Shown here: positions 1-31,777 of the stretch, piece by piece
Numbering within the stretch: position 1 is the first letter of the stretch
Layout of the letters: every line of letters starts with the position of its first letter
Assembly (NCBI GenBank): GCA_035508795.1
Contig: DATJMJ010000006.1
Span: 793-64,792 of the forward strand
Length of the DNA: 64,000 nucleotides
Reading direction: 5' to 3'
Source: Acidimicrobiales bacterium
Lineage (GTDB): Bacteria; Actinomycetota; Acidimicrobiia; Acidimicrobiales; Palsa-688
Notes under the pieces: model-generated
Database searches by the model: none
What the model was told of the DNA's origin: nothing
The model's input: the letters and a program-made list of their open reading frames with translations, nothing else
Program-made: the position numbers and the translations under genes

Positions 1-13
1 GGGCGGTCCACCT

Positions 14-1000
14 GTGCTGAAGGACGGGCGGTCGCACGGACGCCGACCGGGGGGCCGATTGGGTAGCTGGCCTGCGGCGACGACTGTCCTCGTAGGGGTG
101 ATCGGGGACCCGGTGCGCCACTCGCTTTCCCCTGTGCTGCACAATGCTGCGCTCGCCGAGCTCGGCCTCGACTGGGTCTATGTCGCCTTCCCGGTGGCCG
201 CCGGGCGGGGCCAGGCCGCCGTTGCCGCCATGCCCGAGCTGGGCATACGCGGGCTCTCGGTGACGATGCCGCACAAGGCTCCCGCTGCCGCAGCGTGCCA
301 CCGCCTCACGCCCGTCGCACAGCGGCTCGGGGTCGTAAATACGGTCACCAACGTGGCAGGCGTGCTGGTCGGCGACAGCACCGACGGGCCGGGGTTCCTG
401 GACTCCCTGGCAGACCAGGGCTGGTCGCCCGGGCAGAAGCGCTGCTTGGTCCTCGGGGCAGGTGGGGCTGCACGGGCCGTGGTCCTGTCGCTCGGCGAAG
501 CGGGCGCACGCTGGGTCGGCGTCGTCGCCCGCCAGCCCAAACAAGCTCTTTCGGTGGCTCACCTGGCCGAGCCGGTGGGTGCCGTGGCCTCCGTGGAGGC
601 CGCCGACGAGGCTGACCTCATAGTCAACGCCACGCCCGTCGGGATGAGCGGGCAAGGCGGCACCGAGGATTCCGCCGGAGGCGAGCGGGGCGAGCTCCCG
701 TTCGGGCTCGACGCCAAGAGGCTCGGCCCGGGGCAGCTTGTCGCCGACCTTGTATACGCCCCGGCCAACACAGCCCTACTGGCCGCCGCCCGTGCCCGGG
801 GAGCCGACACCACCAACGGGCTCGGCATGCTCATCTACCAAGCGGCGCGCCAGGTAAGGACCTGGACGGGCCGTGACGCCCCCGTTGAGGCAATGTCGGC
901 AGCTGCGCTCAGGGAGCTGGGCAAGCGAGCTGCGAGCCAGTCCACCGGCCGGCGCCCGGGAGGCCACTTCTCAACCTCGCCCGCGAAGTTGCCGAAGTAG
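14..1000 (+). CDS. aroE: Shikimate 5-dehydrogenase
   Basis: N-terminal VIGDPVRHSLSPVLHNAA substrate-binding signature and a GAGGAARAV Rossmann glycine loop. The frame has no stop between the window start and nt 14, so the 5' end may lie upstream of the window. Confidence 0.85.
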   Translation: MLKDGRSHGRRPGGRLGSWPAATTVLVGVIGDPVRHSLSPVLHNAALAELGLDWVYVAFPVAAGRGQAAVAAMPELGIRGLSVTMPHKAPAAAACHRLTPVAQRLGVVNTVTNVAGVLVGDSTDGPGFLDSLADQGWSPGQKRCLVLGAGGAARAVVLSLGEAGARWVGVVARQPKQALSVAHLAEPVGAVASVEAADEADLIVNATPVGMSGQGGTEDSAGGERGELPFGLDAKRLGPGQLVADLVYAPANTALLAAARARGADTTNGLGMLIYQAARQVRTWTGRDAPVEAMSAAALRELGKRAASQSTGRRPGGHFSTSPAKLPK

Positions 1001-1024
1001 CAGCAATAAGAACCGGAGGTTACA

Positions 1025-1963
1025 GTGTCGCTTGAAGGAACGCTCGAGACAATTGCGCTGCCGGACGTCCTGGCTCTGCTGTCTGTCACTGCAAAGACCG
1101 GTGAGCTGCGAGTCGAGACCGGCAACTGGGTTGGGAGCCTATGGTTGGACGCCGGCCAGGTTTCAGGCTTTCAGGTGGGGAACAACAAAGAGGCCGTAGA
1201 CGCCCTTTTCACGCTGCTGCGCCTCCGTGAAGGCAATTTCAGGTTCCACGCCGGCTCTCAGCCGCCCAATTCGGTTGGCCCGTTCGAGATCGGGCCCGTG
1301 CTCGAAGAGGCCGAGGCACGGCTCATGGAGTGGCCCTCCATCGCCGCTGCCGTGCCCTCGCTCACGACTGACTTGCGGCTCCAAAGCTCGATAGACGAGC
1401 CTGTAGCGCTCGCTCCCGACCAATGGCGCCTCGTGGCGACCATCGGCAGCGGGCTGAGCGTAGGCGAGGTGCTCGACGCCTGCGGGCTCGGCGAGTTCGA
1501 GGGCTCAAAGGCCCTCAAAGAGCTCGTGGACCTACATGTGGTCGACGTTGTGCTGCCTGTCAGCCCCGACGTCGGGGCGTCTCATGGCAGCCAGGCCGAC
1601 ACCGGTGAGTACCAGGTGCTCGGCGCAGGCGAAGACGCTGAAGCAGACGCCGACGGTGACGCCGAGGGCTTTGCCGCCGGTTTCGGCGGCGCCAGGCGGG
1701 CGCAGGCGACCGGTTGGGACCAAGGTGTGCGGCACGCGGCCGCCTACGAGGTGGTCCTTGCGGGAGACGCAGCCCCGGACGACGCTGCTGCGCCTCAAGC
1801 GGCGGTGCCGGGGACCGTGGCGACAGACGATGCCGAAATGCCCGATGTCTGGAGAGAAGAAGGCGAGGAAGAAGCGAGCCCGGCCGCAGAGGCACCCGAG
1901 GAAAAGGGCCAGCCCGTCAACCGCGGCCTCCTGCTCAAGTTCCTCGGTTCAGCTCGCAACTAG
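1025..1963 (+). CDS. DUF4388/PATAN-domain protein, first gene of the pilus cluster
   Basis: N-terminus SLEGTLETIALPDVLALLSVTAKTGELRVE...GSLWLDAGQV is the typical DUF4388 (PATAN) opening. RBS ggaggt at 1014-1019 precedes the GTG. The C-terminal half is acidic and Ala/Asp/Glu-rich. No receiver domain is visible. Confidence 0.7.
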   Translation: MSLEGTLETIALPDVLALLSVTAKTGELRVETGNWVGSLWLDAGQVSGFQVGNNKEAVDALFTLLRLREGNFRFHAGSQPPNSVGPFEIGPVLEEAEARLMEWPSIAAAVPSLTTDLRLQSSIDEPVALAPDQWRLVATIGSGLSVGEVLDACGLGEFEGSKALKELVDLHVVDVVLPVSPDVGASHGSQADTGEYQVLGAGEDAEADADGDAEGFAAGFGGARRAQATGWDQGVRHAAAYEVVLAGDAAPDDAAAPQAAVPGTVATDDAEMPDVWREEGEEEASPAAEAPEEKGQPVNRGLLLKFLGSARN

Positions 1964-2046
1964 GACCAAGTTCCCCAACTGAGGTAGACAAGGCTTGGAC
2001 CGGCGGGACGGCGAAGCCGCTCGGTCGCGAGCGGTAGGGCCAGAGG

Positions 2047-2091
2047 CTAGGGGCTGAGCGGGTAGGGGCTGAGCGGGTAGGGGCTGAGGGG
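2047..2091. repeat. 15-bp tandem direct repeat, 3 copies (cTAGGGGCTGAGCGG / GTAGGGGCTGAGCGG / GTAGGGGCTGAGgGG)
   Basis: Read directly at 2047-2061, 2062-2076 and 2077-2091, with one mismatch in each outer copy. A degenerate partial copy (ggtaggg) lies just upstream. Located ~180-225 nt upstream of the pilB ATG. Confidence 0.85.
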
Positions 2092-2192
2092 CCGTAGCGG
2101 CGACGAAGCCCGGGCTCATAGCCAAGTAAGTACTTGAAGATCGCTAGTTACTCGGCGCGCCTGCGGGCACGCGAGTGGGCACGGAAAAGTAA

Positions 2193-2215
2193 CCGATTGA
2201 CCTCGTCTCAATCGG
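2193..2215 (+). promoter_or_regulatory. Perfect 8-bp inverted repeat / hairpin in the pilB leader (CCGATTGA-N7-TCAATCGG)
   Basis: CCGATTGA at 2193-2200 and TCAATCGG at 2208-2215, 58 nt upstream of the pilB ATG, inside the locally AT-richer stretch 2110-2270. Function unknown (operator or 5'-UTR structure). Confidence 0.3.
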
Positions 2216-2272
2216 GAGCCGGAAAATGCCGAGAAATCACATTAGTGGCGGAGCCACGTTTTAGAGGAGGCC

Positions 2273-3988
2273 ATGGACACCAGGGTTCGTGATCGGGAGG
2301 GTGCGCTCTCAGAGGACGAGCAACTCGGCGTTGTCCTCGTAAAGAGCGGCATCATCACCATTGACCAGCTGGGCGAAGCGCTCGGCCGGGCGAAGGACCG
2401 CGGCGTCAACCTGGCTCGCGTCCTCATCGAAGACAAACTGCTCACGGAGGAACAGTTCGTCGGGACCCTTGCCGAGCAACTCGGCCTCGAGTTCGTCGAC
2501 CTCGCCACCTACCCTGTCGACCCGGCGGCAGCACGCCTCGTAAGCGAGGCACTCGCCCGCCGTTACCTCGCGCTCCCGATCGGCTGGTGGGAGGGCCGCC
2601 TCATAGTTGCAATGGCGGACCCCTCAAACGTGTTCGCCATCGACGATATCCGGGCGCTCACCGGCGCTGAGGTACGCCAGGTAGTCGCGACCGCCGAAGC
2701 GGTGACGGCGGCGATAAGCAAGTACCACCGCAAGGACAGCGAGGCCGAGCACATCAGTGCCCAGGCGTCCGCCAGCAGTGCCCCCCTCGAAGATGACCGT
2801 CTCACGCAGATAAAAGAAGTCCGTGAAGACGCCCCGATCGTACGGTTGGTCAACTTGTTGATAAGCCAGGCGATCACAGACCGGGCGTCGGACGTCCACG
2901 TCGAACCGACGGGCAAGGACGTCCGCATCCGTTACCGGATCGACGGGGTGCTCCACGAAGTGATGCGCTCGCCGCGCAACATCCAAAACGGCATCATCAG
3001 CCGCCTCAAGGTCATGGCCGACATAAACATCGCCGAGCGGCGCATCCCTCAAGACGGCCGTATCACGAGCTCGATCGACGGCCGGCCAGTCGACCTGCGG
3101 GTGGCAACTCTGCCCACGGTGCACGGCGAAAAGGTCGTCATGCGAGTGCTCGACAACTCTACGGCCAACCTCCGCCTGTCCGAGCTGGGTTTCCTGCCAA
3201 AGAACATGGAGCGCTACGAGTCGTCCTACCAGAAGCCTTACGGGACGCTGCTCGTCACCGGCCCGACAGGTTCGGGCAAGACGACAACCCTTTACGCGAC
3301 GCTCAATATCCTCAACCAGCCAACGAAAAACGTCATCACGGTCGAGGACCCTGTCGAGTACCAGCTCGAGGGGATCAACCAGATCCAGGTCAACGCGAAA
3401 GCCGGCCTCACGTTCGCCTCTGCGCTGCGCACTATCCTGCGCGCCGACCCCGACATTATCCTTGTCGGTGAGATCCGAGACCGGGAGACGGCGGGGATCG
3501 CGATTGAAGCCGCCCTCACCGGCCACCTCGTGCTATCGACCCTTCACACGAACGACTCTTCGACAACCCCCAACCGCCTGATCGAAATGGGGGTAGAGCC
3601 CTTCCTCGTCGGCAGCGCCCTCGACTGCATCGTCGCCCAACGTCTTGCTCGCAAACTGTGCGACCGCTGCAAGCAGTCTTACCCAACCGAGAAGGAAAAG
3701 CTGATGAGCATGGGGTGGGAGACAGTAGGTATCGAGCTGCCCTCGCAACTTTTCCGCTCGGTCGGCTGCCAGGTTTGCGGCAAGACCGGGTTCATGGGCC
3801 GCTTCGCCGTGCACGAGGTCCTCAACATCAACGAAGAAATCGAGCGGATGATCGTCGAGCACGCCCACGCCGACGACATCCGCAAGGCTGCAATAGCGGA
3901 CGGCATGCTGACTCTGCGGCATGCAGGCCTCATGGCGGCAGTCAACGGCATCACATCGCTCGACGAGGTGATGCGCGTCATCGCCTAG
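2273..3988 (+). CDS. pilB: Type IV pilus assembly (extension) ATPase, GspE/PilB family, with N-terminal T2SSE_N/MshEN-type domain
   Basis: Walker A LLVTGPTGSGKTTTLYA, Walker B ILVGEIRD, and a tetracysteine cluster CDRC...CQVCGKTG typical of PilB/GspE. N-terminal GspE_N-like domain. RBS ggagg at 2265-2269. Confidence 0.92.
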   Translation: MDTRVRDREGALSEDEQLGVVLVKSGIITIDQLGEALGRAKDRGVNLARVLIEDKLLTEEQFVGTLAEQLGLEFVDLATYPVDPAAARLVSEALARRYLALPIGWWEGRLIVAMADPSNVFAIDDIRALTGAEVRQVVATAEAVTAAISKYHRKDSEAEHISAQASASSAPLEDDRLTQIKEVREDAPIVRLVNLLISQAITDRASDVHVEPTGKDVRIRYRIDGVLHEVMRSPRNIQNGIISRLKVMADINIAERRIPQDGRITSSIDGRPVDLRVATLPTVHGEKVVMRVLDNSTANLRLSELGFLPKNMERYESSYQKPYGTLLVTGPTGSGKTTTLYATLNILNQPTKNVITVEDPVEYQLEGINQIQVNAKAGLTFASALRTILRADPDIILVGEIRDRETAGIAIEAALTGHLVLSTLHTNDSSTTPNRLIEMGVEPFLVGSALDCIVAQRLARKLCDRCKQSYPTEKEKLMSMGWETVGIELPSQLFRSVGCQVCGKTGFMGRFAVHEVLNINEEIERMIVEHAHADDIRKAAIADGMLTLRHAGLMAAVNGITSLDEVMRVIA

Positions 3989-4151
3989 GCCCCGGCCGCC
4001 GAGCCGCAAGCGCCAATTGTGCATGCGCCAATTGCCGGGTTGCCCGGCCTAGCCAGTTGGACCTCATGCTTGCTTGGCCCCGAGCCGATAGACGCGGTAA
4101 CAGGGGCCTTCGCCCGGGCAATTCGGCAGCGAACGCTCCTCGGAGGACGCG

Positions 4152-5372
4152 ATGAGCAGGTTCATGGTTGGGCGCCAGCCGATCTTCGACAAGGACTTCG
4201 AGGTCCGCGGCTACGAACTGCTCTTTCGCGACCCGGGGAGGAGATTGCCAGGTGGCGACGCGATGACGGCGGACGTGCTCGTCCATGCCGGGCTCGACCT
4301 CGGCCTCGAGAACCTCGTCGGCAACAAGCTCGCTTTTGTAAACGCCACGCGCCCGTTCTTGGTGGGGGAGCAGGAAATCCCGTTCCCTCCCCAGCAGACC
4401 GTGGTCGAGATCCCCGGGACGGTGGCCTTTGACGCCGACGCCATATCGGGTTGCCGGTGGCTCGTGTCGCAGGGCTTCACCCTTGCGCTCGACGACTACG
4501 AGCTGAAAGGGAGCGAGCAGCCGCTGTTGGAGCTCGTCTCGATCGTCAAGCTCGACGTGCTCGCCCTGTCGGTCGCGGAGCTGAGACGCGACGTCGAGGA
4601 GTGCAGCGCGCTCGGGTTGGAGCTCGTGGCCGAAAAGGTCGAGACTCACGAACAGCTGGCGCAGTGCCAGGAGCTCGGCTTCGGGCTCTTCCAGGGCTAC
4701 CTGCTGTCGCGCCCCGAGATCGTCGAGGGCAATGCGCTCAGCCCGAGCAAACTGGCGTGCGTCAAGCTCGTGCACGAGCTGTGCGACCCGACAGCGACGA
4801 CCGAGGACATCCAGCGCGTCATCGAGACCGATGCCGCCCTTACCTACAGGTTCCTCCGCCTGGCAGGCGAGGGGGCGGCCCGCGGCCATTACCGGCGCAT
4901 CACTTCGGTGCACGACGGCGTGGCGGCGCTCGGCCGCGAACGTATGCGCGCCTGGGTCACCTTGATGCTGCTGTCCGACACGGGCGACGCCGTCAGCGAG
5001 CAGTTCCACATCGCCCTGGCCCGCGCCCGCATGTGCGAGCTGATCGCCACCCGTCTCGCTCCTTCGTTGTCAGGGGCGGCCTTCACCGTCGGCCTGGTCT
5101 CCGCACTCGACTTGCTCCTCGGTGCACCTGTGGCAGAGATCGTCGAGAGCCTCTCGCTCGCCGAGGAGCTGACGAGCGCCCTCACCGCAAAAGACGGCTT
5201 GCTCGGCAAGATCCTCTCCGACGTCCTCGCATGGGAAATGGGGGGCTCCGAACTGCGCCTGCGCTGCGGGCTCTCCCTCGGGAGCCTCGAACGCAGCTAC
5301 CTCGAAGCGCTGGCGTGGTCCACTCAGATCTGCGCGCTCTCCGAGGAAGAACTGGCAACAAGCGTCAGGTAG
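4152..5372 (+). CDS. EAL domain + HDOD domain protein (c-di-GMP phosphodiesterase or sensor)
   Basis: EAL-family opening QPIFDKDFEVRGYELLFR, then FVN, ALDDYELKG, VKLD, AEKVET and FQGYLLSRP motifs. The C-terminal half (KLVHELCDPTATTEDIQRVIETDAALTYRFLRLA...VAALGRERMRAWV) is HDOD-like. Confidence 0.85.
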   Translation: MSRFMVGRQPIFDKDFEVRGYELLFRDPGRRLPGGDAMTADVLVHAGLDLGLENLVGNKLAFVNATRPFLVGEQEIPFPPQQTVVEIPGTVAFDADAISGCRWLVSQGFTLALDDYELKGSEQPLLELVSIVKLDVLALSVAELRRDVEECSALGLELVAEKVETHEQLAQCQELGFGLFQGYLLSRPEIVEGNALSPSKLACVKLVHELCDPTATTEDIQRVIETDAALTYRFLRLAGEGAARGHYRRITSVHDGVAALGRERMRAWVTLMLLSDTGDAVSEQFHIALARARMCELIATRLAPSLSGAAFTVGLVSALDLLLGAPVAEIVESLSLAEELTSALTAKDGLLGKILSDVLAWEMGGSELRLRCGLSLGSLERSYLEALAWSTQICALSEEELATSVR

Positions 5373-5482
5373 CTCGCCGGGCCAGCCGGGCCCGGGCTCG
5401 AGGGCACCGTCTCGGCCGCCGATACAGGCCTCGAACGCCTGATTAGCTAAAGCGCTGGCCAAAGGCCGCCGAAGAGAAATTG

Positions 5483-7027
5483 ATGCAAACTGCCTCGCGC
5501 AAGGTCGGAGAGTTCCTAGTCGACCGCAAAGTACTGTCGAAGGACGCGCTCGAGTACGCCCTCAGCAAAGAGGTCGAGACAGGCGTCCCTCTAGCCAAGA
5601 TCCTCTCGGCCGAAGGCATCGTCAGCGAGCGCGACCTCGTCGCCGCGATCGCCGACCAGCTGAAGATGGCCTTCTGGGATCCGACGACGACCCCTGTCTC
5701 GCCACTCGTGGACGGGGTGGTGCCTGCCGAGCTGGCTCGCAAGCACCAGGTGGTCGGGATCGCCCTCGACGGGGACACGCTCCTCGTCGCCACGGACAAC
5801 CCCCTCGACGAGGGGGTCATGAAGATCATCAGCGAGGTGACCGGGTGGAAAACCCGGCCGTGCCTCGCGACCCGGAGCGACATCGACGGCGCAATCGCGG
5901 CCATGTACGGGCCGAGCACCGCAGGTGGTGCGGGGGCGCAGCTCCTCGGCGAGGAGACCAAGCCTCTCCATGTCAACCAGATGCTCGTCCGGCTTGTCGA
6001 GGAGCGGGGTTCGGACCTCCATCTCTCGGCCGGCCGCCCGCCGATGATCCGTGTCGACGGCGACCTTCGTGCGATGGACGAGTTCGAGGTCCTCACCCCG
6101 TCGAGGATCCGCGACCTGATCTACGAGATCCTTTCGCAGAAGATCCGCGAGCGCTTCGAGGAAGATCTCGAGCTCGACACTTCGCACATAGTCCCGGGCG
6201 TGGCTCGCTTCCGGCTGAACGTCTTCCAACAGCGCGACGCCGTCGGCGCTGTCTTCAGGGCGATCCCCTTCGAGATCAAGACCCTCGAGCAGCTCGGGAT
6301 CCCCACCGAAGTCCGCCAGTTCGCCGACCTCCCGAGAGGCCTCGTGCTGGTGACCGGCCCGACCGGTTCGGGCAAGTCGACCACGCTCGCTGCCCTGATC
6401 GACATCATCAACGAGTCCAAGCCGCTGCACATCATGTCGGTGGAGGACCCGATCGAGTACTTGCACAGCCACAAAACCGCAGTCGTGAACCAGCGGGAAG
6501 TGGGGGAGGACACCAAGGGTTTTGCGAACGCCCTCAAGCATGTGCTCCGCCAGGACCCAGACGTGATCCTGATCGGCGAGCTCCGTGACCTCGAGACGAT
6601 CTCAACGGCGCTGACCGCTGCAGAGACGGGCCACTTGGTCTTTGCGACCCTCCACACCCAGGACGCCCCCCAGTCGATCGACCGCATCATCGACGTGTTC
6701 CCCGCCCACCAGCAGCAGCAGATCCGTACCCAGCTCGCCACCACGATCCAGGGGGTCGTCACCCAGCAGCTGCTGCCTCGCGCGGGCGGGACAGGCCGCG
6801 CCGTCGCATGCGAGATCCTTGTTGCGACGCCCGCCGTACGGAACCTGATCCGGGAGGGCAAGACCCACCAGATTTACAGCACTATGCAAGCCGGTGCCAA
6901 GTACGGGATGAACAGCATGGACCAGATGCTCGCCGACCTCGTAAAGAGGGGCGTCGTAAGCATCGAAGTCGCCGAGGAGCGGTGTTCCAACCCCGAAGAC
7001 CTGCAGCGCCTGGTCCATTCAGCTTAG
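5483..7027 (+). CDS. pilT: PilT-type twitching-motility (retraction) ATPase with an extra ~150-aa T2SSE_N/MshEN-like N-terminal domain
   Basis: The C-terminal ~360 aa are canonical PilT: LVTGPTGSGKSTTLAA, ILIGELRD, ATLHT, and the AVRNLIREGK (AIRNLIRE) motif. The N-terminal extension resembles the PilB N-domain. ATG at 5483 (a TTG at 5480 is also possible). Confidence 0.9.
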   Translation: MQTASRKVGEFLVDRKVLSKDALEYALSKEVETGVPLAKILSAEGIVSERDLVAAIADQLKMAFWDPTTTPVSPLVDGVVPAELARKHQVVGIALDGDTLLVATDNPLDEGVMKIISEVTGWKTRPCLATRSDIDGAIAAMYGPSTAGGAGAQLLGEETKPLHVNQMLVRLVEERGSDLHLSAGRPPMIRVDGDLRAMDEFEVLTPSRIRDLIYEILSQKIRERFEEDLELDTSHIVPGVARFRLNVFQQRDAVGAVFRAIPFEIKTLEQLGIPTEVRQFADLPRGLVLVTGPTGSGKSTTLAALIDIINESKPLHIMSVEDPIEYLHSHKTAVVNQREVGEDTKGFANALKHVLRQDPDVILIGELRDLETISTALTAAETGHLVFATLHTQDAPQSIDRIIDVFPAHQQQQIRTQLATTIQGVVTQQLLPRAGGTGRAVACEILVATPAVRNLIREGKTHQIYSTMQAGAKYGMNSMDQMLADLVKRGVVSIEVAEERCSNPEDLQRLVHSA

Positions 7028-7090
7028 AGATTTGCTCAAAGAGCGTGAAATTATGCCGGCCGCCGCAAGAGAGAGTAAAAGGACGCACTG

Positions 7091-8344
7091 ATGCCGCAAG
7101 CTACTTATGACTATAAGGTCCGTGACGCCGCCGGCAAGGTCCTTCAAGGCACCCTCGAAGCAGACAACACAACCCTCGTCGTAAAGCGCCTCCGCCAGAT
7201 GGGTTACGTGCCCATCGACATCTCAGCTCGCGCCTCTGGCAAGAATGCCATGCGCAAGGACCTCCACTTACCCGGGAGGGCAGAGCACGTCCCGCTCAAG
7301 GTGCTCTCGATCTTCAGCCGGCAGTTTGCCACGCTGATCAGTTCCGGCCTGACGCTCTTCAAAGCGATCACGATCCTCGAGGAGCAGACGGAGCACCCCG
7401 GACTTGCCAAGGTCGTCGGGGACGTCCGCTTGCGCGTCGAGCGTGGCATCTCGCTTTCGGAAGCGTTGGCCGAGCACCCGAAGACTTTTAGCCAGCTGTT
7501 CGTGGCAATGGTGCGTGCCGGAGAGGCCAGCGGCGGCTTGGACAAAGCGCTCCTCAACCTGGCGACTACAATGGAGAAGCAGGTCGAGCTGCGTGGAAAG
7601 ATCAAATCGGCGATGGCTTACCCGATCGCGGCACTCTGCATTGTCCTGCTCATCGGTGCCGCGGTCCTCCTGTTCATCGTCCCTGTGTTCAAAGGGATCT
7701 TCAAACAGCTCGGCGGCCAGCTACCGACGCCAACACTGGTGCTCGTAGACATCTCCAACATTGCCGTCCACTACTTCCCGCTCGTCCTGGTCGGCTTTGT
7801 CGCCCTGGCACTGGGCTTCCGCCACCTCATCAAAACTCCCAACGGTCGCGCCGCCTGGGACGTGACAAAACTCAAGGCGCCCATCTTTGGCGAGCTGGCC
7901 CGCAAGACAGCCGTTTCCCGGTTCACTTCTACCCTGTCTGCGCTGCTCTCCGCCGGCGTGCCCGTGTTGGAGTCTCTCGAGATAACGCGCCAGACCGTTC
8001 ACAATACGGTCGTCGCCAAGGGGATCGACTCAATCATTGACGGTGTCAAAAAGGGTGAGCCCATCGCGCGTGGTCTAAGCGGCCACCCGGTGTTCCCCAC
8101 GATGATCTCGCATATGATCAGTGTGGGTGAGGAGACCGGCGGCCTCGACACGATGCTCTCGAAAGCGGCCGAGTTCCTCGACGGCGAGATCGAAAGGACT
8201 ATCGAGTCGTTGACATCATTGTTGGAGCCGCTCATGATCGTCGTCCTCGGAGGAGCCGTCGGCAGCATGGTCATTTGCCTTTATTTGCCGATGTTCAAGG
8301 TGGACACCCTGATCAATGGGAGCGGCGGCAACAGCGGTAGCTGA
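7091..8344 (+). CDS. pilC: Type IV pilus platform protein, GspF/PilC family
   Basis: 417 aa with two T2SSF-type repeats (FSRQFATLISSGLTLFKAI... and FTSTLSALLSAGVPVLESL...) and three hydrophobic segments. Confidence 0.92.
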   Translation: MPQATYDYKVRDAAGKVLQGTLEADNTTLVVKRLRQMGYVPIDISARASGKNAMRKDLHLPGRAEHVPLKVLSIFSRQFATLISSGLTLFKAITILEEQTEHPGLAKVVGDVRLRVERGISLSEALAEHPKTFSQLFVAMVRAGEASGGLDKALLNLATTMEKQVELRGKIKSAMAYPIAALCIVLLIGAAVLLFIVPVFKGIFKQLGGQLPTPTLVLVDISNIAVHYFPLVLVGFVALALGFRHLIKTPNGRAAWDVTKLKAPIFGELARKTAVSRFTSTLSALLSAGVPVLESLEITRQTVHNTVVAKGIDSIIDGVKKGEPIARGLSGHPVFPTMISHMISVGEETGGLDTMLSKAAEFLDGEIERTIESLTSLLEPLMIVVLGGAVGSMVICLYLPMFKVDTLINGSGGNSGS

Positions 8345-8546
8345 AACCCCGAAGCGTCGTCGTCCTGCCGGCTCGGGCCCCGGTAAGGCTATCGGGCGGT
8401 ACCGGGCTAAACGAGCCGCAAGCCTCAGTGCTTACAGGCGCATACCACCGGTCAGGCACCAGGGGGCGACGATGCGAGCGACTTTCCTCGACCTTGGCGT
8501 TCGTCGTACCTGCGACGGCCGACCGGCGGCCACGTCCAACCTCGTA

Positions 8547-10190
8547 CTACCCGGGAATGGCGGGGCACCCGTGCACCGGCTCGGCATAGCTGTAGAGGTG
8601 TTCGGGCAGGGCAAAGCCGTACTCGTCGTAATTGGTAACCGCCACGAGCTTCGCTCGGGGATGGCCCCCGAACTTGAAGCTCGATATGACCCCGCACGTC
8701 GGCGTGACACGGATCGGCCCGTCCGCCTCTACCGGGGCCATCGGGTACTCGGCGTACCAACCGTTCCAGGCGAAACCGCCATCGACGCTCGAAGGAGCCT
8801 CGCCTGCTCGCACCAGTGCCTGCCCTGCGCGCCATACCGCGCTTCCGTACGCGTCCGAGTTGAGCGTCAGCGCTAATGCGCTCAAGCCCACAAGGCCCGC
8901 AAGCGCAATAGTCGCATAGGGCAGGCGGCGCGGTGCCGGAAAGGCTCCCTTGGTGACTTTGCCGCGGGTGCTGCGCGCCAGGATGGCCGCCAAGGGGAAG
9001 ACCAACGGGTAGAGGTAGCGGTCATATGACCGGCTGGCGGAACACAACGTGTACGCCACCACGCCAGTCCCAATGAGGACCGCGAAGGCTCCGAGGAGGG
9101 TACTCGAGTTCACCTCCCATCTTCTTTTGAGAAGGCAGGTAAGGTTTTGTGCAGCCAAAGCCGCCAAGGCAGCACCTGAAACGATCGCGCCGACATTGAA
9201 GATCGCCCATGTACCAGGTGCAAAAACGTCGGGCCGGGAATAGTCTTGGAGATCGTTGCCCATGGCTCCTTGTACCGTGAGGTAGTTCCCGCGAAAAACC
9301 ATGCCGGCGGTATGGTAGAGCACCCCGCCGGCGACAATTACAAGTGCCGCCACGACGACCGGTCCGCCTACCCTGGGCCGCAGGCGCTTCAGTACCGAGG
9401 GCAAGAGAGGAAGAAGGCAAAACGAGAGCGTGAAGTACAGCTGGAAGACCTCTGCGACGGTTGAGAGGTTTGGGCTCGACAGTTGTGTCACCTGTTGCCC
9501 GAACTTGCCGGCCAGGAGGTAAACAAGCTCGCATACTGCCAACGTCGCGGCGCCGAGGATGACCGTGGGCCTTAGATATGAGCGTCGCTGGAGTGCCGCG
9601 CACAAAAGGACGGCCGCCGGTGCCGTGATACCGAATTGGCGGATAGAAAATGCAAAGCATCCTGCGAGCATCGAAGCTGCAAGGAGCGTGTACCGCCGGC
9701 GGCCCGAGTTCTTCAAGGCGTAGGAGCCCGACAATAGGCAAATAAGCTCGGCTGAGAACGCCGGCACATCTGTCATGAAGGTGGCCGTGTTCAACAAGAA
9801 CCCGGGGGAGGCAAGCGTCACCAGCACGCAGGCGGCAGCTCGACCTGTCGAGAGCAGTTGGCGTGCGAGCAAGTACGCTGCGACCAAGCCCGCACTTGCA
9901 AGGACCACTGTCGATATCACTGGCGCCCACGTGCCACCCCCCAGCACCAAAACAAACGGTGCGGCCCAAAGCACCTGCCCGATGAGCGTCATGTCCCCCC
10001 AGGGGACGAAGTGGAGATGGCCTGTCTTGACGAAACGCAAGACGGTCACACGATAAGCCCAATCATCGTTGCTCGGGAGGGGCAGCATGTGAAGTACGTA
10101 GGAGATGACGAGCGGCGTGACCGCGCCCAACACGACGAGGCCGGTAACCACGAGGATCTCGCGGCTCCGGCGCCCGCGAGGCAACCGCAA
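8547..10190 (-). CDS. Polytopic membrane protein, GT-C (ArnT/PMT-like) glycosyltransferase candidate
   Basis: Only the C-terminal ~545 aa of ORF 8547-10925 are used, because the upstream part overlaps the GT2 gene on the other strand. There are >=10 hydrophobic helices, an acidic SNDDW motif in the first extracytoplasmic loop, and a soluble C-terminal domain. The start is uncertain: TTG 10190/10184, GTG 10151 or ATG 10088. Confidence 0.55.
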   Translation of the reverse strand: MRLPRGRRSREILVVTGLVVLGAVTPLVISYVLHMLPLPSNDDWAYRVTVLRFVKTGHLHFVPWGDMTLIGQVLWAAPFVLVLGGGTWAPVISTVVLASAGLVAAYLLARQLLSTGRAAACVLVTLASPGFLLNTATFMTDVPAFSAELICLLSGSYALKNSGRRRYTLLAASMLAGCFAFSIRQFGITAPAAVLLCAALQRRSYLRPTVILGAATLAVCELVYLLAGKFGQQVTQLSSPNLSTVAEVFQLYFTLSFCLLPLLPSVLKRLRPRVGGPVVVAALVIVAGGVLYHTAGMVFRGNYLTVQGAMGNDLQDYSRPDVFAPGTWAIFNVGAIVSGAALAALAAQNLTCLLKRRWEVNSSTLLGAFAVLIGTGVVAYTLCSASRSYDRYLYPLVFPLAAILARSTRGKVTKGAFPAPRRLPYATIALAGLVGLSALALTLNSDAYGSAVWRAGQALVRAGEAPSSVDGGFAWNGWYAEYPMAPVEADGPIRVTPTCGVISSFKFGGHPRAKLVAVTNYDEYGFALPEHLYSYAEPVHGCPAIPG

Positions 10191-10319
10191 CGTTGCGCTA
10201 TCGCTTGGCACCTGCGTCTTGATCGCGAGAGCCGGCGCGTCCGAGACTGCGAGCACACTGAGTAGATCGGCCGAAAGGTCCCCTAGCTCAAGTCGGGCGG
10301 TCCGCTGGCCGATACCGCA

Positions 10320-11285: not shown

Positions 11286-11298
11286 CGCCCCGGGCGCG

Positions 11299-13218: not shown

Positions 13219-13338
13219 ACGGTCCAAGGTGGCCTGCCGAAACCTAATTGAGCGACTAGCCAATTGGGGCCACCTAATGCCGCGAGTCCCGCTAGCAGGT
13301 GGCCGCGCTTAACACCTACGTACCCAGAAAGGACCGAA

Positions 13339-13914
13339 GTGCACTACCACGTGGCCGAACGGCGCCGTGACGAGGGTTTCACACTCATCGAGCTCATGGT
13401 CGTCGTACTAATTATGGGGATCCTGATGGCGATCGCCATCCCGACCTTCCTTAGCACAAGAGGCAGCGCAAACGATGCCTCAGCCAAGTCCAACGCCACC
13501 AACGCGTTTACCAACGAGAAGGCGTACTACGCCGCCAACCAGGTCTTCGAGCTCGCGACATCTGCGACCGACGGCGGTAACGTCCTGGACACGACCCTCC
13601 CCTGGGGCATTGCCCAGACAACTCAGGGTGATGTGACCGCCTACGTGCTCAGCTACGGCACGGGCAACACAAACAATGCCCTCGAGATCGAGGCCTCCTC
13701 CAAGTCGGGGAACTGCTTCTACATCCTCGACGTCGAAACGACCAGCAGTGCGACGATCGCCTACAGCGCCGACAACAACGGGTGCGCAGGCTCTATCGCC
13801 ATATCGGCCTTGCCGGTCTCCGGCACGGCGACCCTCACCTCGGGCAACGCGGGGGTCCTTACCGCTCAACCGACGCTCGCCTCCACCCCGACGGGTTGGT
13901 ATACCAGCTGGTAA
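13339..13914 (+). CDS. pilA: Type IV major pilin candidate (paralog 1)
   Basis: Class III signal peptide RRRDEG|FTLIELMVVVLIMGILMAIAIPTFL with Phe+1 and Glu+5. Two Cys in the C-terminal region (NCFY...NGCAG). RBS gaaagga upstream of GTG 13339. Followed by a strong hairpin. Confidence 0.85.
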   Translation: MHYHVAERRRDEGFTLIELMVVVLIMGILMAIAIPTFLSTRGSANDASAKSNATNAFTNEKAYYAANQVFELATSATDGGNVLDTTLPWGIAQTTQGDVTAYVLSYGTGNTNNALEIEASSKSGNCFYILDVETTSSATIAYSADNNGCAGSIAISALPVSGTATLTSGNAGVLTAQPTLASTPTGWYTSW

Positions 13915-14736: not shown

Positions 14737-16377
14737 GTGAGAGTGCCAAAGCGCACAACGATAGGACTAGACATAGGTTCGTCCGCAGTACGGGCTGCTC
14801 AGGTGACGAGCGACGGGAAGCGGGCAGAGGTTGACCGCTTCGCTCAGGTAGGCCTGCCGCCCGGCGCGGTTGTAGAAGGTGAGATCAGGGACCACAGCGC
14901 CGTGGTGACCGCACTGAGGCGGCTTTGGTCCGATGGCGGCTTCGGGCAAAAGAGCGTAGTGCTGGGTGTCAGTAGCCAGCGCGCCATGGTGCGAATGATA
15001 GAGATGCCGGCCATCGAGGACAAGCAGGTGCGGTCCGCGTTGCGTTACGAGATCGGCGATCTGCTCCCGATCCCGGTAGACGACGCGGTGTTCGATTTTG
15101 CAATTGTGGGGCCTGGACGGCCGAAGGGTGACGGAGGCCAGACGACGCAGGTGCTTGTCGTCGCTGCCCAAAAAGATATCGTCTCCGACGAAGTCGCCGT
15201 GGCCACCAAGGCCGGGTTGCGCGTCGCTGCGGTGGACGCGTCGCCGCTCGCGCTCCTCCGGGCCGTCCCGTCAGGTGGCGCCAGTGACGGCTTGGACGCG
15301 GTCGTATCAGTGGGAGCGCAGTTGCTTGTCGTCGCTGTGCGGCAGGGCGGGGTACCCCGCTTTCTCCGCACCACCACACTGGCATCCGATGTAGTAGCCG
15401 AACCGGTTGCACGTGTGGCCGCCGGCGCCAAACCGGGCTCGAGTCCTGCGGGCACTGAACCGCGGACCGGCCCAAGCAGGACTGACCTTGTGGTCGAGGA
15501 GGTCCGCAGCTCTATTGAGTACTTCCTGTCCCACGCGCAAGGTAGCCACCTCACCCAGATCGAACTGACCGGTGGGGGAGCTTTGGTCCCGGGCCTCGTC
15601 GACCGTTTGAGCAGCGGGCTCGCCTTACCCGTCGTAAATGCGACCGCTGGCGTAAAGGCCGATGGCTCGGCGCTGGGCTTGACGGAGGAGCAACTCGCGG
15701 AAGCTTCGCAACGCTGGGTCACCGCCGTCGGCCTGGGGCTTTGGGGCAGCAACGGGTCGTACGCCGTCAGCCTGCTCCCTCCCGAGATCGCAGAGCGGGC
15801 TCGCCAAAAGCGCACGATCGCCCTGGCGGCCGCAGGAGTGGTGGTAGTTGCCGGGGGCCTGGGGGTACTGTCCCACGGTCGCGTGAGCGACACAACAAAA
15901 GTCACGCAGCAGGCCGTCACCGCCGGGCAGCAAGTTTCAGCACTGGATGCCGAGATCGCGAGGCTCGGGTCGCTTACGTTGGTACAGAACGAGGTTTCCG
16001 ACCGTCGGGCATTGGCAGCCAGCAGCTTGGCGACAGACGCGGACTGGTTGAGCCTTTACAGCAGGATCAACCAAGCATTGCCTCCCGGCGTCAAGATCCA
16101 GACAATAAGTTTCAGTTCTGATTCGCCCTCGGCTGCCGTCAGCGGCGCCAGCCCGAGCACCTACATAGGAGCCGTGTCCATAACCGTGCAGGCCAAGGGT
16201 GGGCTACCGGTAGTGGCGGACTTCGTCAAGGCGGAGTCGGCTGTAAAAGGCATGACAGGCCTCTGGATCGGTTCGACCAGTTCCTTGAACGGTGTCGAAA
16301 ACTTCGCGGCTTCGGCCGATATCACCGCCGTGAGTGAGAGCAACCGAGCTTCGAAACTGCCTGGAGGGCCCCAATGA
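14737..16377 (+). CDS. pilM: PilM-PilN fusion protein (actin-like ATPase fold + TM + PilN domain)
   Basis: N-terminus IGLDIGSSAVRAAQV...VVEGEIRD is PilM-like. It is followed by LLPPEIAERARQKR, the TM segment IALAAAGVVVVAGGLGVL, and a periplasmic-type PilN domain. GTG 14743 is an alternative start with better RBS spacing. Confidence 0.85.
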   Translation: MRVPKRTTIGLDIGSSAVRAAQVTSDGKRAEVDRFAQVGLPPGAVVEGEIRDHSAVVTALRRLWSDGGFGQKSVVLGVSSQRAMVRMIEMPAIEDKQVRSALRYEIGDLLPIPVDDAVFDFAIVGPGRPKGDGGQTTQVLVVAAQKDIVSDEVAVATKAGLRVAAVDASPLALLRAVPSGGASDGLDAVVSVGAQLLVVAVRQGGVPRFLRTTTLASDVVAEPVARVAAGAKPGSSPAGTEPRTGPSRTDLVVEEVRSSIEYFLSHAQGSHLTQIELTGGGALVPGLVDRLSSGLALPVVNATAGVKADGSALGLTEEQLAEASQRWVTAVGLGLWGSNGSYAVSLLPPEIAERARQKRTIALAAAGVVVVAGGLGVLSHGRVSDTTKVTQQAVTAGQQVSALDAEIARLGSLTLVQNEVSDRRALAASSLATDADWLSLYSRINQALPPGVKIQTISFSSDSPSAAVSGASPSTYIGAVSITVQAKGGLPVVADFVKAESAVKGMTGLWIGSTSSLNGVENFAASADITAVSESNRASKLPGGPQ

Positions 16378-26230: not shown

Positions 26231-26243
26231 CGTCGGCGGCGCT

Positions 26244-31775: not shown

Positions 31776-31777
31776 CT

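What the first reader, a model, noticed from the sequence alone, without database searches (positions are those of the whole stretch)
2273..7027. Both pilus motors carry MshEN-like (c-di-GMP-receptor type) N-domains and flank an EAL-HDOD gene
- **The unusual feature:** PilB having a T2SSE_N/MshEN domain is normal. The PilT-type ATPase having one is not. Its C-terminal 360 aa are canonical PilT, including AVRNLIREGK, and nt 5483-5930 encode an extra ~150-aa N-domain.
- **Motif matches:** I aligned two tandem segments in each protein by eye to the published 24-residue MshEN c-di-GMP motif RLGxx(L/V/I)(L/V/I)xxG(L/V/I)(L/V/I)xxxxLxxxLxxQ.
  - PilB: QLGVVLVKSGIITIDQLGEALGRA and NLARVLIEDKLLTEEQFVGTLAEQ.
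  - PilT: KVGEFLVDRKVLSKDALEYALSKE and PLAKILSAEGIVSERDLVAAIADQ.
  - The hydrophobic and Leu positions fit. Several Arg/Gly/Gln positions are substituted.
- **The gene in between:** it encodes an EAL+HDOD protein whose EAL signature is only partly intact. It has ELL for EAL, and E-I-P-G where E-x-x-E is expected; DDY, KLD, EKVE and QGY are present. It may therefore be a sensor rather than a phosphodiesterase.
- **Implication:** this suggests a compact module in which extension and retraction are both gated by c-di-GMP.
Basis: partly seen in the sequence, partly recalled or inferred. Interest (0 to 1): 0.7.

Follow-up and report, generated by a model that had tools for sequence, protein, structure and literature searches.

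The report
Retraction motor PilT with extra N-domain
In this actinobacterial (Acidimicrobiia) pilus gene cluster the retraction motor PilT really does carry the N-terminal domain normally seen only on the extension motor, but that domain lacks the residues known to hold the signal molecule c-di-GMP, so it is more likely a docking or regulatory handle than a c-di-GMP sensor.

Summary
On the + strand lie pilB (2273-3988), an EAL-HDOD gene (4152-5372), pilT (5483-7027) and pilC (7091-8344). PilT is a bona fide PilT/PilU ATPase (TIGR01420, 486.6 bits against a cutoff of 319.1). It has an extra ~150-residue N-domain that scores as MshEN/T2SSE_N and folds like V. cholerae MshEN (Foldseek top hit 5HTL, E 5.7e-10).

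- The long PilT is the norm across the class Acidimicrobiia (all 80 species loci examined). It also occurs outside the class, for example in Armatimonadota.
- Its c-di-GMP half-sites are degenerate class-wide. None of 79 PilTs pass the published relaxed motif. The Gly of half-site II is never Gly, and the Gln of half-site I is never Gln.
- Its closest solved relative, PilF GSPII-A, does not bind c-di-GMP.
- The window's own PilB is also degraded at critical positions, although more distant relatives keep near-perfect motifs.
- The EAL-HDOD gene is a PdeH/CdgJ/ZpdA-type protein inserted only in one subclade, in two orientations. Here it has lost one residue (E89G) that a published census counts among seven catalytic-site positions.

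Best reading: the N-domain is a docking or regulatory N1 domain, with an optional, lineage-specific c-di-GMP accessory gene. This is a new variant of a known kind, of moderate interest.

The parts
1025..1963 (+). DUF4388 (PATAN-type) protein encoded directly upstream of pilB. It is a candidate motor-binding regulator.
   Evidence: Pfam PF14332 scores 53.2 bits at residues 4-103. The gene is found upstream of pilB in most of the 80 species loci that extend that far upstream, though often only weakly similar (25-60% identity). PATAN domains bind PilB1 and PilC in Synechocystis (bioRxiv 10.1101/2021.06.11.447907).
2273..3988 (+). PilB-type extension ATPase (571 aa).
   Evidence: Pfam T2SSE scores 459.8 bits. 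TIGR02538 scores 642.8 bits, the best family hit but below the 675.65 equivalog cutoff. A C-x2-C...C-x2-C cysteine motif is visible in the translation.
2321..2479 (+). PilB MshEN_N 53-residue region (residues 17-69): QLGVVLVKSGIITIDQLGEALGRA - KDRGV - NLARVLIEDKLLTEEQFVGTLAEQ.
   Evidence: NF053729 scores 40.3 bits against a cutoff of 38. It fails the relaxed motif in both halves: Q at I-1, A at I-24, A at II-3, K at II-10. Some more distant relatives keep near-perfect motifs, e.g. PLGSLLIDEGLLTEAQLDAALAEQ-x5-PLGRLLIEQGTISEAELVRTLARQ.
2480..2734 (+). PilB MshEN_C / T2SSE_N alpha-beta subdomain (residues 70-154).
   Evidence: Pfam PF05157 scores 76 bits.
4152..5372 (+). EAL-HDOD protein (406 aa) with the PdeH/CdgJ/ZpdA architecture. 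EAL covers about residues 1-193 and HDOD runs from about residue 204.
   Evidence: Pfam EAL scores 40.7 bits and HDOD 38.1 bits. The alignment to RocR keeps E86, D114/D115, K133/D135, E161 and Q181 but has G89 where RocR has E268. The family alignment shows E-x-x-E in most relatives. The architecture is shared with ZpdA, CdgJ, VC1851 and EAL-HDOD PDEs of Bacillus and Geobacter (PMC12607878); that the Bacillus one is PdeH/YuxH is from my memory.
5483..7027 (+). PilT-type ATPase with an N-terminal extension (514 aa from ATG 5483; the ORF opens at TTG 5480).
   Evidence: TIGR01420 scores 486.6 bits against a cutoff of 319.1 over residues 165-507. AVRNLIREGK is present. P0001 is a 100%-identical 514-aa database entry.
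5501..5659 (+). PilT MshEN_N four-helix region (residues 8-60): KVGEFLVDRKVLSKDALEYALSKE - VETGV - PLAKILSAEGIVSERDLVAAIADQ.
   Evidence: NF053729 scores 38.2 bits against a cutoff of 38. The model has helices at 3-15, 21-34, 38-44 and 50-60. It fails the relaxed motif in both halves: K at I-10, E at I-24, A at II-3.
5660..5920 (+). PilT MshEN_C / T2SSE_N alpha-beta subdomain (to residue 147), followed by a low-confidence linker (residues ~148-162).
   Evidence: Pfam PF05157 scores 57.4 bits at residues 63-147. pLDDT is above 90 up to residue ~143 and below 50 for residues 149-160.
5972..7000 (+). Canonical PilT motor core (N2D plus C-terminal ATPase domain).
   Evidence: TIGR01420 covers residues 165-507. 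The core is 40-60% identical to PilT-family representatives.
7091..8344 (+). PilC platform protein.
   Evidence: Pfam T2SSF x2 scores 213 bits. NF052607 PilC scores 407.9 bits, the best family hit but below its 700-bit equivalog cutoff.
14737..16377 (+). PilM-type protein (546 aa), a possible docking partner for the N1 domains.
   Evidence: Pfam PilM_2 scores 130.5 bits. PilF couples to PilMN through a GSPII domain in Thermus (PMC6325625).

Best explanation
This is the core motor set of a type IVa-like pilus of an Acidimicrobiia bacterium.

**Shown**
- The retraction-type ATPase PilT carries an N-terminal GSPII/MshEN-fold 'N1' domain. It consists of a four-helix bundle and an alpha-beta subdomain, joined to a normal PilT core by a flexible linker.
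- This architecture is inherited throughout the class.

**Inferred**
- The domain is not a canonical c-di-GMP receptor. In each half-site, one of the two elements that make polar contact with the ligand is missing class-wide.
- It most likely lets PilT dock onto, or be regulated by, the same cytoplasmic partners that PilB's N1 domain uses. Candidates are the PilM/PilC platform and the PATAN/DUF4388 protein encoded just upstream. The two motors would then compete or alternate at one site.
- c-di-GMP input, where it exists in this class, probably enters through PilB. PilB keeps near-intact motifs in some of the more distant relatives (6 of 63 pass both relaxed half-motifs).
- In the window's subclade PilB's motif has decayed. 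A PdeH/CdgJ-type EAL-HDOD gene has been inserted between pilB and pilT. It most likely sets or senses local c-di-GMP. In this genome it carries an E-to-G change at one listed catalytic-site position, so its activity may be reduced.
For: **Domain identity**
- Family scores are, PDB sequence hits, the structure models, and the Foldseek result.

**Class-wide inheritance**
- All 120 top protein clusters carry PF05157+PF00437, apart from one 413-aa fragment on a 1.2-kb contig (P0079), at ~510-550 aa.
- Of the 80 species-level genome loci, 79 align from residue 1-7 and the other (L013) is cut off by its contig end. They include the cultured IMCC26256.
- The gene order aroE-DUF4388-pilB-pilT-pilC is conserved.

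**Degeneracy of the binding site**
- None of 79 PilTs pass the relaxed motif in either half.
- Position II-3 is A, P, S or T and never G.
- Position I-24 is E, A or S and never Q.
- Position I-10 is K or H.
- The hydrophobic core positions are nearly invariant.
- The roles of these residues, and the loss of binding in G11L and G40I mutants, come from Wang 2016.
- PilF GSPII-A, the best PDB sequence hit, has SLA in motif II and does not bind c-di-GMP.

**Docking precedent**
- GSPII-C of PilF is needed for PilMN-stimulated ATPase activity.
- The PilB N-domain binds PilZ in Xanthomonas (7LKM is among the Foldseek hits).
- PATAN binds PilB1 and PilC.
- PATAN-PilT fusions exist (P0241).
- PilM is present in the window.

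**EAL-HDOD**
- Its restricted and variable placement is shown.
Against: - No binding data exist.
- The NF053729 c-di-GMP-motif model is (just) passed by both proteins.
- Gly-to-Ala is milder than the tested Gly-to-Ile or Gly-to-Leu mutants.
- The hydrophobic Leu cluster that provides most of the binding energy is retained.
- Published work notes that some deviations from the consensus still allow binding.
- No interaction of any PilT N1 domain with PilM, PilC or PATAN has been shown. The docking role is inferred by analogy with PilB, PilF and GspE.
- The placement of an EAL-HDOD gene exactly between the two motors in about ten species argues for some c-di-GMP link.
Confidence: 0.55

Rival explanations
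1. One reading: both N-domains are functional MshEN c-di-GMP receptors, so extension and retraction are each gated directly by c-di-GMP. The EAL-HDOD protein acts as a local sensor or PDE.
For: - Both proteins clear the NF053729 cutoff, at 40.3 and 38.2 bits against 38.
- The fold matches c-di-GMP-bound MshEN and GSPII-B structures.
- The hydrophobic and Leu positions are conserved.
- Some divergent MshEN-PilT proteins elsewhere score much better on the motif model: P0310 56.5, P0245 48.7 and P0259 45.8 bits.
- An EAL-HDOD gene lies between the motors.
Against: - Neither half-site of either protein passes the relaxed published motif.
- Position II-3 is Ala in both proteins. It is never Gly in 79 PilTs and is Pro in 28 of them, which removes the backbone NH that H-bonds guanine.
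- Motif-I Gln is replaced by Glu in PilT and Ala in PilB.
- G40I and G11L abolish binding in VcMshE.
- PilF GSPII-A, with the same S/P-L-A pattern, does not bind.
- The EAL-HDOD insertion is confined to a subclade.
Confidence: 0.15
2. FimX-like trans-sensor model: in this subclade the motors' N-domains have lost direct c-di-GMP binding. The EAL-HDOD protein, with a weakened catalytic site, binds c-di-GMP and docks on the degenerate N-domains of PilB and/or PilT to bias extension against retraction.
For: - Every locus that carries the EAL-HDOD insert, and whose PilB N-terminus is readable, has the degraded PilB motif II (Ala at II-3, Lys at II-10).
- Of the eight full-length same-strand pil-embedded copies in species genomes (window included), seven have lost at least one catalytic position (E22G, N64K/R, E89G/A/D/N/V, E161L). 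They keep R26 and D135, which correspond to ligand-recognition residues.
- There is precedent in FimX-PilB and FimX-PilZ-PilB complexes.
Against: - The correlation is a single clade, that is, one evolutionary event.
- Four genomes of that clade lack the insert at the locus.
- In the group at least 66% identical to the window protein, 26 of 38 members keep all 12 conserved positions. Several of these appear to share short contigs with pilT, judged only by matching contig lengths.
- The window's protein has only one change.
- No interaction data exist.
Confidence: 0.12
3. The PilT N-domain binds a different small ligand (for example cGAMP, c-di-AMP or another nucleotide), or binds c-di-GMP in a non-canonical pose.
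For: - Wang 2016 has a results section headed 'MshEN can also bind cGAMP' (outline).
- In the PilT N-domain, several polar or charged residues in and around the degenerate site (S6, R16, K17, S20, D22, E25, E31, K40, E50) are invariant among 27 relatives at least 63% identical. In the wider 79-species census K17 is Lys in 50 and His in 28.
Against: This is pure inference. No data point to another ligand, and conserved surface residues are equally expected for a protein-protein interface.
Confidence: 0.08
4. The N-domain is an evolutionary relic of a PilB-PilT recombination and has no present function.
For: PilT-N and PilB-N of the window are homologous (30% identity, E 8e-14). The c-di-GMP motif is degenerate.
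Against: - The domain is retained intact in all 79 species PilTs whose N-terminus is readable, down to 56% overall identity. Many positions are invariant and the model is confident.
- Similar fusions persist in at least 20 divergent 50%-identity clusters.
Confidence: 0.05

Closest known systems
V. cholerae MshE N-terminal domain (MshEN, PDB 5HTL), the founding c-di-GMP-binding T2SSE_N domain
   Same: - It has the same two-subdomain fold and is the top Foldseek hit (E 5.7e-10).
- It has the same 24+5+24 layout with conserved hydrophobic positions.
   Different: - MshEN sits on an extension ATPase, whereas here the domain sits on a PilT-type ATPase.
- Key contact positions are changed: G at II-3 becomes A, Q at I-24 becomes E, and the turn Gly at I-10 becomes K.
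Thermus thermophilus PilF GSPII-A domain (PDB 9G1W / 6F8L)
   Same: - It is the best sequence match in the PDB (E 6e-26 for the full PilF chain 6F8L, which matched through four GSPII stretches; E 2.7e-12 for GSPII-A alone, 9G1W).
- It has the same x-L-A start of motif II.
- It is a degenerate GSPII domain that does not bind c-di-GMP.
   Different: - It belongs to a triple-GSPII extension ATPase, not a PilT.
- Motif I of GSPII-A is nearly perfect, whereas PilT's motif I also deviates.
Canonical PilT/PilU retraction ATPases (P. aeruginosa, G. metallireducens and others; ~345-370 aa)
   Same: The motor core is a full-length TIGR01420 match at 486.6 bits, with the AIRNLIRE-type motif and Walker boxes.
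   Different: Canonical PilT lacks any N1 domain. The literature states this explicitly.
EAL-HDOD phosphodiesterases (V. cholerae ZpdA, CdgJ and VC1851; B. subtilis PdeH/YuxH)
   Same: The protein has an N-terminal EAL and a C-terminal HDOD domain and is about 400 aa long. From my own knowledge, CdgJ modulates MSHA pilus function upstream of MshE.
   Different: - The window's protein has Gly where the second Glu of E-x-x-E is expected.
- It is encoded inside the pilus motor operon.
FimX (degenerate EAL c-di-GMP receptor acting on PilB, directly or via PilZ)
   Same: It is an EAL-domain protein functionally tied to a T4P motor whose own N-domain does not bind c-di-GMP.
   Different: FimX is a REC-PAS-GGDEF-EAL protein with a thoroughly degenerate EAL domain. 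Here the EAL domain is nearly intact and is fused to HDOD. No interaction is known.

Membership tests
PilT/PilU family type IVa pilus ATPase (TIGR01420) | Whole-protein score above the curated cutoff, with a full-length match to the 343-position model. | tested here: met
   486.6 bits against 319.1, residues 165-507 on model positions 2-343.
PilT/PilU family type IVa pilus ATPase (TIGR01420) | PilT signature A(I/V)RNLIRE in the C-terminal domain. | tested here: met
   AVRNLIREGK is present in the translation.
PilT/PilU family type IVa pilus ATPase (TIGR01420) | Drives pilus retraction. | not testable with these tools
   This needs genetics or microscopy.
MshEN / T2SSE_N domain (Pfam PF05157; GSPII fold) | Pfam score above the gathering threshold. 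| tested here: met
   PilT 57.4 bits and PilB 76 bits against a cutoff of 23.1.
MshEN / T2SSE_N domain (Pfam PF05157; GSPII fold) | A four-helix MshEN_N subdomain plus an alpha-beta MshEN_C subdomain. | tested here: met
   The AF2 model has pLDDT 85.8, with helices at 3-15, 21-34, 38-44 and 50-60 followed by an alpha-beta unit. The 21 top Foldseek hits are all of this fold.
c-di-GMP-binding MshEN_N (functional receptor) | NCBIfam NF053729 'c-di-GMP_motif' score at or above 38 bits. | tested here: inconclusive
   PilT scores 38.2 and PilB 40.3, at the threshold. Better-preserved MshEN-PilT proteins elsewhere score 45-57.
c-di-GMP-binding MshEN_N (functional receptor) | Two tandem 24-residue motifs that fit the relaxed pattern [RKPN]hGxxhhxx[GAS]hhxxxxhxxxhxx[QNKRYWST] (Wang 2016). 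| tested here: not met
   - PilT motif I fails at positions 10 (K) and 24 (E); motif II fails at position 3 (A).
- PilB motif I fails at positions 1 (Q) and 24 (A); motif II fails at positions 3 (A) and 10 (K).
- None of 79 class PilTs pass either half.
c-di-GMP-binding MshEN_N (functional receptor) | Measured binding of c-di-GMP. | not testable with these tools
   This needs ITC, DRaCALA or DSF.
Catalytically competent EAL phosphodiesterase | Pfam EAL score above threshold. | tested here: met
   40.7 bits against 31.3, but only model positions 114-236 are matched.
Catalytically competent EAL phosphodiesterase | All seven RocR-numbered site residues retained: E175, N233, E265, E268, D295, K316, E352 (criterion of Seshasayee 2010, PMC2952852). 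| tested here: not met
   Six of seven are retained (E22, N64, E86, D114, K133, E161). The E268 equivalent is G89. Most relatives have E at this position.
Catalytically competent EAL phosphodiesterase | Hydrolysis of c-di-GMP to pGpG. | not testable with these tools
   This needs an enzyme assay.
EAL-HDOD (PdeH/CdgJ/ZpdA-type) proteins | An N-terminal EAL followed by a C-terminal HDOD domain in a ~400-aa soluble protein. | tested here: met
   EAL and HDOD hits in Pfam. Sources name relatives 'EAL and HDOD domain-containing protein'. The architecture is described in PMC12607878.
PilB type IV-A pilus assembly ATPase (TIGR02538) | Score above the equivalog cutoff. | tested here: inconclusive
   642.8 bits against 675.65. 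It is the best-scoring family and the match is full length (18-569), but it falls below the cutoff.

The most novel reading that the evidence does not exclude
In one Acidimicrobiia subclade the pilus motors have handed c-di-GMP sensing over to a dedicated, partly degenerate EAL-HDOD protein. This protein docks on the MshEN-fold N-domains of both PilB and PilT. A single trans-acting sensor would then switch the machine between extension and retraction. Alternatively, the PilT N-domain is a receptor for c-di-GMP in a non-canonical pose, or for another nucleotide. Either case would be the first direct second-messenger input into a retraction ATPase.
Probability: 0.15. Interest if true: 0.7.

Novelty: new variant of a known kind. 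Interest (0 to 1): 0.45.

Why it matters
- **How it differs from the textbook.** Models of type IV pili treat the N1/MshEN domain as the mark of extension motors and as their route for c-di-GMP input. PilT is described as a bare motor that cannot sense c-di-GMP directly. Here a whole bacterial class, abundant in soils and waters, builds its retraction motor with that domain. Similar fusions occur in other lineages.
- **If the domain is a docking handle.** It offers a natural experiment on how the two motors share or compete for the platform, which is an open question.
- **If the domain does bind a nucleotide.** It would be the first retraction motor with direct second-messenger control.
- **Practical lesson.** A Pfam 'MshEN' hit, or a borderline NF053729 hit, should not be read as 'c-di-GMP receptor' without checking the contact residues.

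Tried and rejected
1. **GGDEF, HD-GYP and PilZ motifs.** A six-frame regex scan of the 64-kb window found no GGDEF or HD-GYP motif; the only PilZ-pattern match lies in an Arg/Ala-rich off-frame ORF and is not credible. Pfam scans of 35 of the window's larger ORFs also found none of these domains. The 'no diguanylate cyclase' refutation therefore remains untested. A literature search gave only phylum-level GGDEF ranges of 0-80 per genome.
2. **Taxonomy of divergent MshEN-PilT clusters.** The listing of cluster members returned no organism names. A profile search with ten divergent members was swamped by ~720-aa tandem PilT-PilT proteins. It yielded only one named non-Acidimicrobiia example, from Armatimonadota (P0464).
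3. **Motif-frame regex.** My first regex was mis-spaced and framed only one, wrongly placed, sequence. I replaced it with MAFFT column mapping.
4. **Catalytic-residue table.** My first table had the DD pair off by one. It is corrected.
5. **'Pil-embedded EAL-HDOD copies are mostly degenerate'.** I considered this claim and dropped it. It holds for 7 of the 8 full-length same-strand copies in species genomes. However, 26 of 38 members of the closest group (at least 66% identity) are intact, and several appear to share short contigs with pilT.
6. **Promoter and terminator scan of 1900-8600.** It found no + strand terminator between the genes and no convincing promoter. It is uninformative beyond being compatible with co-transcription.
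7. **Alignment of the pilB / EAL-HDOD intergenic DNA.** Alignment across four loci showed no conserved element.

Full report
**What is in the window**

Positions 14-8344 carry one co-directional run of genes on the + strand:
- aroE-like gene (14-1000)
- DUF4388/PATAN protein (1025-1963)
- PilB (2273-3988)
- EAL-HDOD protein (4152-5372)
- PilT (TTG 5480 / ATG 5483-7027)
- PilC (7091-8344)

Further genes show that this is a complete type IV pilus locus embedded in shikimate-pathway genes:
- pilin-like genes (13264-13914 and 14026-14658)
- a long PilM (14737-16377)
- more N-methyl-motif proteins on the minus strand (19630-24410)
- aroC, aroB and a prepilin peptidase (24492-28279)

The DNA is about 62-71% G+C. 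Its closest relatives are all Acidimicrobiales/Acidimicrobiia genomes.

**Checking the observation**

PilT is a genuine PilT/PilU ATPase. TIGR01420 scores 486.6 bits against a cutoff of 319.1 over residues 165-507, and AVRNLIREGK is present.

Residues 1-147 are an added domain:
- Pfam MshEN (PF05157) scores 57.4 bits at residues 63-147.
- The NCBIfam 53-residue c-di-GMP-motif model NF053729 scores 38.2 bits at residues 9-60, against a cutoff of 38.
- By sequence the domain hits solved GSPII/MshEN domains. The full PilF chain (6F8L) gives E 6e-26 through four GSPII stretches, of which GSPII-A (residues 7-147) is the best; GSPII-A alone (9G1W) gives E 2.7e-12, Geobacter PilB about 1e-10, and 5HTL 7.7e-8.
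- An AlphaFold model of residues 1-165 is confident (mean pLDDT 85.8). It shows a four-helix bundle followed by an alpha-beta unit, then a disordered linker. The full-length model gives the same picture.
- Foldseek against the PDB returns 5HTL (MshE with c-di-GMP) first, at E 5.7e-10. All 21 significant hits are MshEN, GSPII, XpsE-N or PilB-N domains.

PilB carries the same domain (PF05157 76 bits; NF053729 40.3 bits). The middle gene is EAL (40.7 bits, C-terminal half of the model only) plus HDOD (38.1 bits).

**How unusual is a PilT with this domain?**

The literature I could search does not describe it. The paper that defined MshEN never mentions PilT. Roelofs et al. [quoted passage not shown] A 2023 review lists PilT as 'no binding'.

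In sequence space, however, the architecture is common within the class:
- All 120 best protein clusters (62-100% identity) are about 510-550 aa with PF05157+PF00437, except one 413-aa fragment on a 1.2-kb contig. Their sources name them simply 'PilT'.
- Of the 80 best species-representative genome loci (56-81% identity), 79 align from residue 1-7; the exception (L013) is cut off by the end of its contig. They include the cultured 'Actinobacteria bacterium IMCC26256'.
- The gene order aroE-DUF4388-pilB-pilT-pilC is conserved across them.

The architecture also occurs beyond the class:
- An exhaustive search of 50%-identity cluster representatives found 20 of the top 150 PilT-like representatives with an N-terminal domain matching an HMM of this N-domain.
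- Ten of these were tested. Nine have TIGR01420 as their best family, above its cutoff. Only four of those nine reach NF053729: P0310 at 56.5, P0245 at 48.7 and P0259 at 45.8 bits are among them. The tenth, P0307, scores best as PilB.
- One named example is from Armatimonadota.
- Many other PilT-like representatives carry different N-extensions. Only 45 of the 150 are 420 aa or shorter. One has a DUF4388 domain.

The feature is real and under-described, but it is not a peculiarity of this locus.

**Is the PilT N-domain a c-di-GMP receptor?**

Wang et al. 2016 give the role of each conserved residue:
- The Arg and Leu at positions 1-2 and the Leu residues at positions 17 and 21 pack on the guanines.
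- The backbone NH of the Gly at position 3, and of the next residue, H-bonds guanine O6 and N7.
- The Gln at position 24 H-bonds the ribose and phosphate.
- The Gly at position 10 makes the inter-helix turn.
- G11L and G40I abolish binding.

Their own relaxed search pattern still requires Gly at position 3 and G/A/S at position 10.

I mapped these positions in 79 Acidimicrobiia PilTs.

| Position | Consensus | What the 79 PilTs have |
|---|---|---|
| Motif I, position 3 | G | G in 79/79 |
| Motif I, position 10 | G | K, H or R in 79/79 |
| Motif I, position 24 | Q | E, A or S in 79/79 |
| Motif II, position 3 | G | A 30, P 28, S 11, T 7, I 2, M 1; never G |
| Motif II, position 10 | G | G in 68/79 |
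| Motif II, position 24 | Q | Q in 52/79 |

- The hydrophobic core positions are almost invariant.
- None of the 79 pass the relaxed pattern in either half.
- Each half-site has therefore lost one of its two polar-contact elements class-wide. In a third of the species, Pro removes the backbone NH altogether.
- The best PDB sequence match, PilF GSPII-A, has S-L-A at the start of motif II and was shown by ITC not to bind c-di-GMP.

I conclude, by inference and not measurement, that canonical c-di-GMP binding by PilT-N is unlikely (about 15-20%).

**The window's PilB**

Some of the more distant Acidimicrobiia PilBs keep near-perfect motifs, for example PLGSLLIDEGLLTEAQLDAALAEQ-x5-PLGRLLIEQGTISEAELVRTLARQ. 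Motif II position 3 is Gly in 34 of 63, and 6 of 63 pass both relaxed motifs.

The window and its 12 closest relatives differ. They have N-L-A at II-1..3, Lys at II-10 and Phe at II-17. Ten of the 13, the window included, also have Ala at I-24. So even 'PilB is a normal MshEN receptor' is doubtful for this particular genome.

**The EAL-HDOD gene**

The gene lies between pilB and pilT in 10 of the 80 species loci (L008 holds only its last residues), plus the window. All 10 fall within the closest clade (PilT at least 72% identical):
- Same strand: L001, L002, L004, L006, L007, L008 (partial), L009 and L046.
- Opposite strand: L014 and L015.
- Absent from equally close loci: L003, L005, L011, L012 and L060.
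- Absent from every more distant locus, where pilB abuts pilT.

Homologues at about 57% identity sit in unrelated neighbourhoods. The gene is thus a lineage-specific insertion, not part of the conserved machine.

The EAL-N/HDOD-C architecture is that of V. cholerae ZpdA (an active PDE), CdgJ and VC1851, and of EAL-HDOD PDEs from Bacillus and Geobacter; I take the Bacillus one to be PdeH/YuxH from memory.

Alignment to RocR and to 129 relatives gave the following:
- The window's protein keeps E22, R26, N64, E86, D114, D115, K133, D135, E161, E164 and Q181.
- It has G89 where the second Glu of E-x-x-E (RocR E268) is expected.
- That residue is one of seven whose retention a published census required for an 'intact' site.
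- Ninety of the 130 aligned family sequences keep all twelve positions.
- In the window's own group (at least 66% identity), 26 of 38 are intact.
- Among the eight full-length same-strand pil-embedded copies in species genomes (window included), seven have lost at least one position. Some losses are severe, such as E22G and N64K.

With a single substitution, I rate an active (possibly weakened) PDE and a binding-only protein as roughly equally likely.

**Most likely mechanism**

- Shown: the domain's identity, its class-wide inheritance, the degeneracy of the contact residues, and the patchy distribution of the EAL-HDOD insertion.
- Inferred: the PilT N1 domain works as a docking or regulatory module.
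- The basis is analogy. GSPII-C of PilF is required for PilMN-stimulated ATPase activity. The Xanthomonas PilB N-domain binds PilZ (7LKM). PATAN domains bind PilB1 and PilC, and a PATAN gene sits directly upstream of pilB in most of the class loci that reach that far upstream.
- With both motors carrying homologous N1 domains (30% identity, E 8e-14), they may compete for one platform site.
- c-di-GMP input, if present, would come through PilB in the relatives with intact motifs. In the window's clade it could come through the EAL-HDOD protein.
- Overall confidence in this reading is about 0.55. The rival explanations are listed separately.

**Limits**

- No binding, enzymatic or interaction data can be obtained here.
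- The presence of a diguanylate cyclase in this genome could not be tested. None is in the 64-kb window, and the literature gives only a phylum-wide range of 0-80 GGDEF proteins per genome.
- The taxonomic spread outside Acidimicrobiia is only sketched.
- The link between PilB motif decay and the EAL-HDOD insertion rests on a single clade.

**Verdict**

- It is a new variant of a known kind: a PilT with a degenerate MshEN/GSPII N1 domain that is standard in one class.
- Interest is moderate (0.45). It would rise to about 0.7 if a nucleotide, or a trans-acting sensor, were shown to act on the retraction motor.

Noticed in passing
window 1025-1963 (+): A DUF4388/PATAN-domain protein is encoded directly upstream of pilB here and in most related loci that extend that far upstream. 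PATAN domains bind PilB1 and PilC in Synechocystis. PATAN is fused to a PilT-like ATPase in P0241. It is a candidate partner for the motors' N-domains.
   Followed up: partly
window 14-1000, 24492-25649, 26175-27311, 27485-28279: The whole pilus locus is inserted within shikimate-pathway genes. An aroE-like gene lies upstream, aroC and aroB lie downstream, and a prepilin peptidase comes right after aroB. The aroE-DUF4388-pilB linkage is conserved class-wide.
   Followed up: partly
window 17876-24410 (-): This stretch holds a 1358-aa protein with an N-terminal methylation (pilin) motif, a 235-aa pilin-like protein and a 599-aa Ricin-type lectin-domain protein. Together they may form a giant minor-pilin or tip-adhesin set.
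   Followed up: no
window 8547-13218: Two PMT_2 (GT-C type) membrane glycosyltransferases and a GT2 enzyme lie between pilC and the pilin genes. This may point to pilin glycosylation.
   Followed up: no
window 14737-16377 (+): The PilM-type protein is 546 aa, about 200 aa longer than the PilM_2 model span (residues 10-335). It may be a PilM-PilN-like fusion.
   Followed up: no
window 28323-31865 (-): This is a four-gene set: an ATP_bind_1 GTPase-like protein, two small ORFs and a 723-aa HATPase_c protein. From memory it resembles an actinobacterial 'conservon' (cvnA-D).
   Followed up: no
loci L001, L002, L004, L006, L007, L046 against L009, L014, L015: Pil-embedded EAL-HDOD copies show repeated loss of catalytic positions (E22G, N64K/R, E89A/D/N/V, E161L). 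The two opposite-strand copies and L009 are intact.
   Followed up: partly
PilB N-termini of the window, L001, L002, L004-L007, L011, L012, L014, L015, L046, L060: Decay of PilB's second c-di-GMP half-site (Ala at II-3, Lys at II-10, Phe at II-17) is confined to the same clade in which the EAL-HDOD insertion occurs. Some more distant PilBs keep near-perfect motifs.
   Followed up: partly
locus L054 (CALQAT020000026.1): The record is titled 'MAG: Bordetella parapertussis', but it carries an Acidimicrobiia-type aroE-pilB-pilT-pilC locus almost identical in layout to IMCC26256. It is probably mislabelled or contaminated.
   Followed up: no
proteins P0401-P0455 and P0241-P0253: Many ~720-aa proteins appear to be tandem PilT-PilT fusions, and some are named from Myxococcota or Deltaproteobacteria. 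Two carry eukaryote labels (Abscondita terminalis, Ditylenchus destructor) and are probably contaminant sequences.
   Followed up: no
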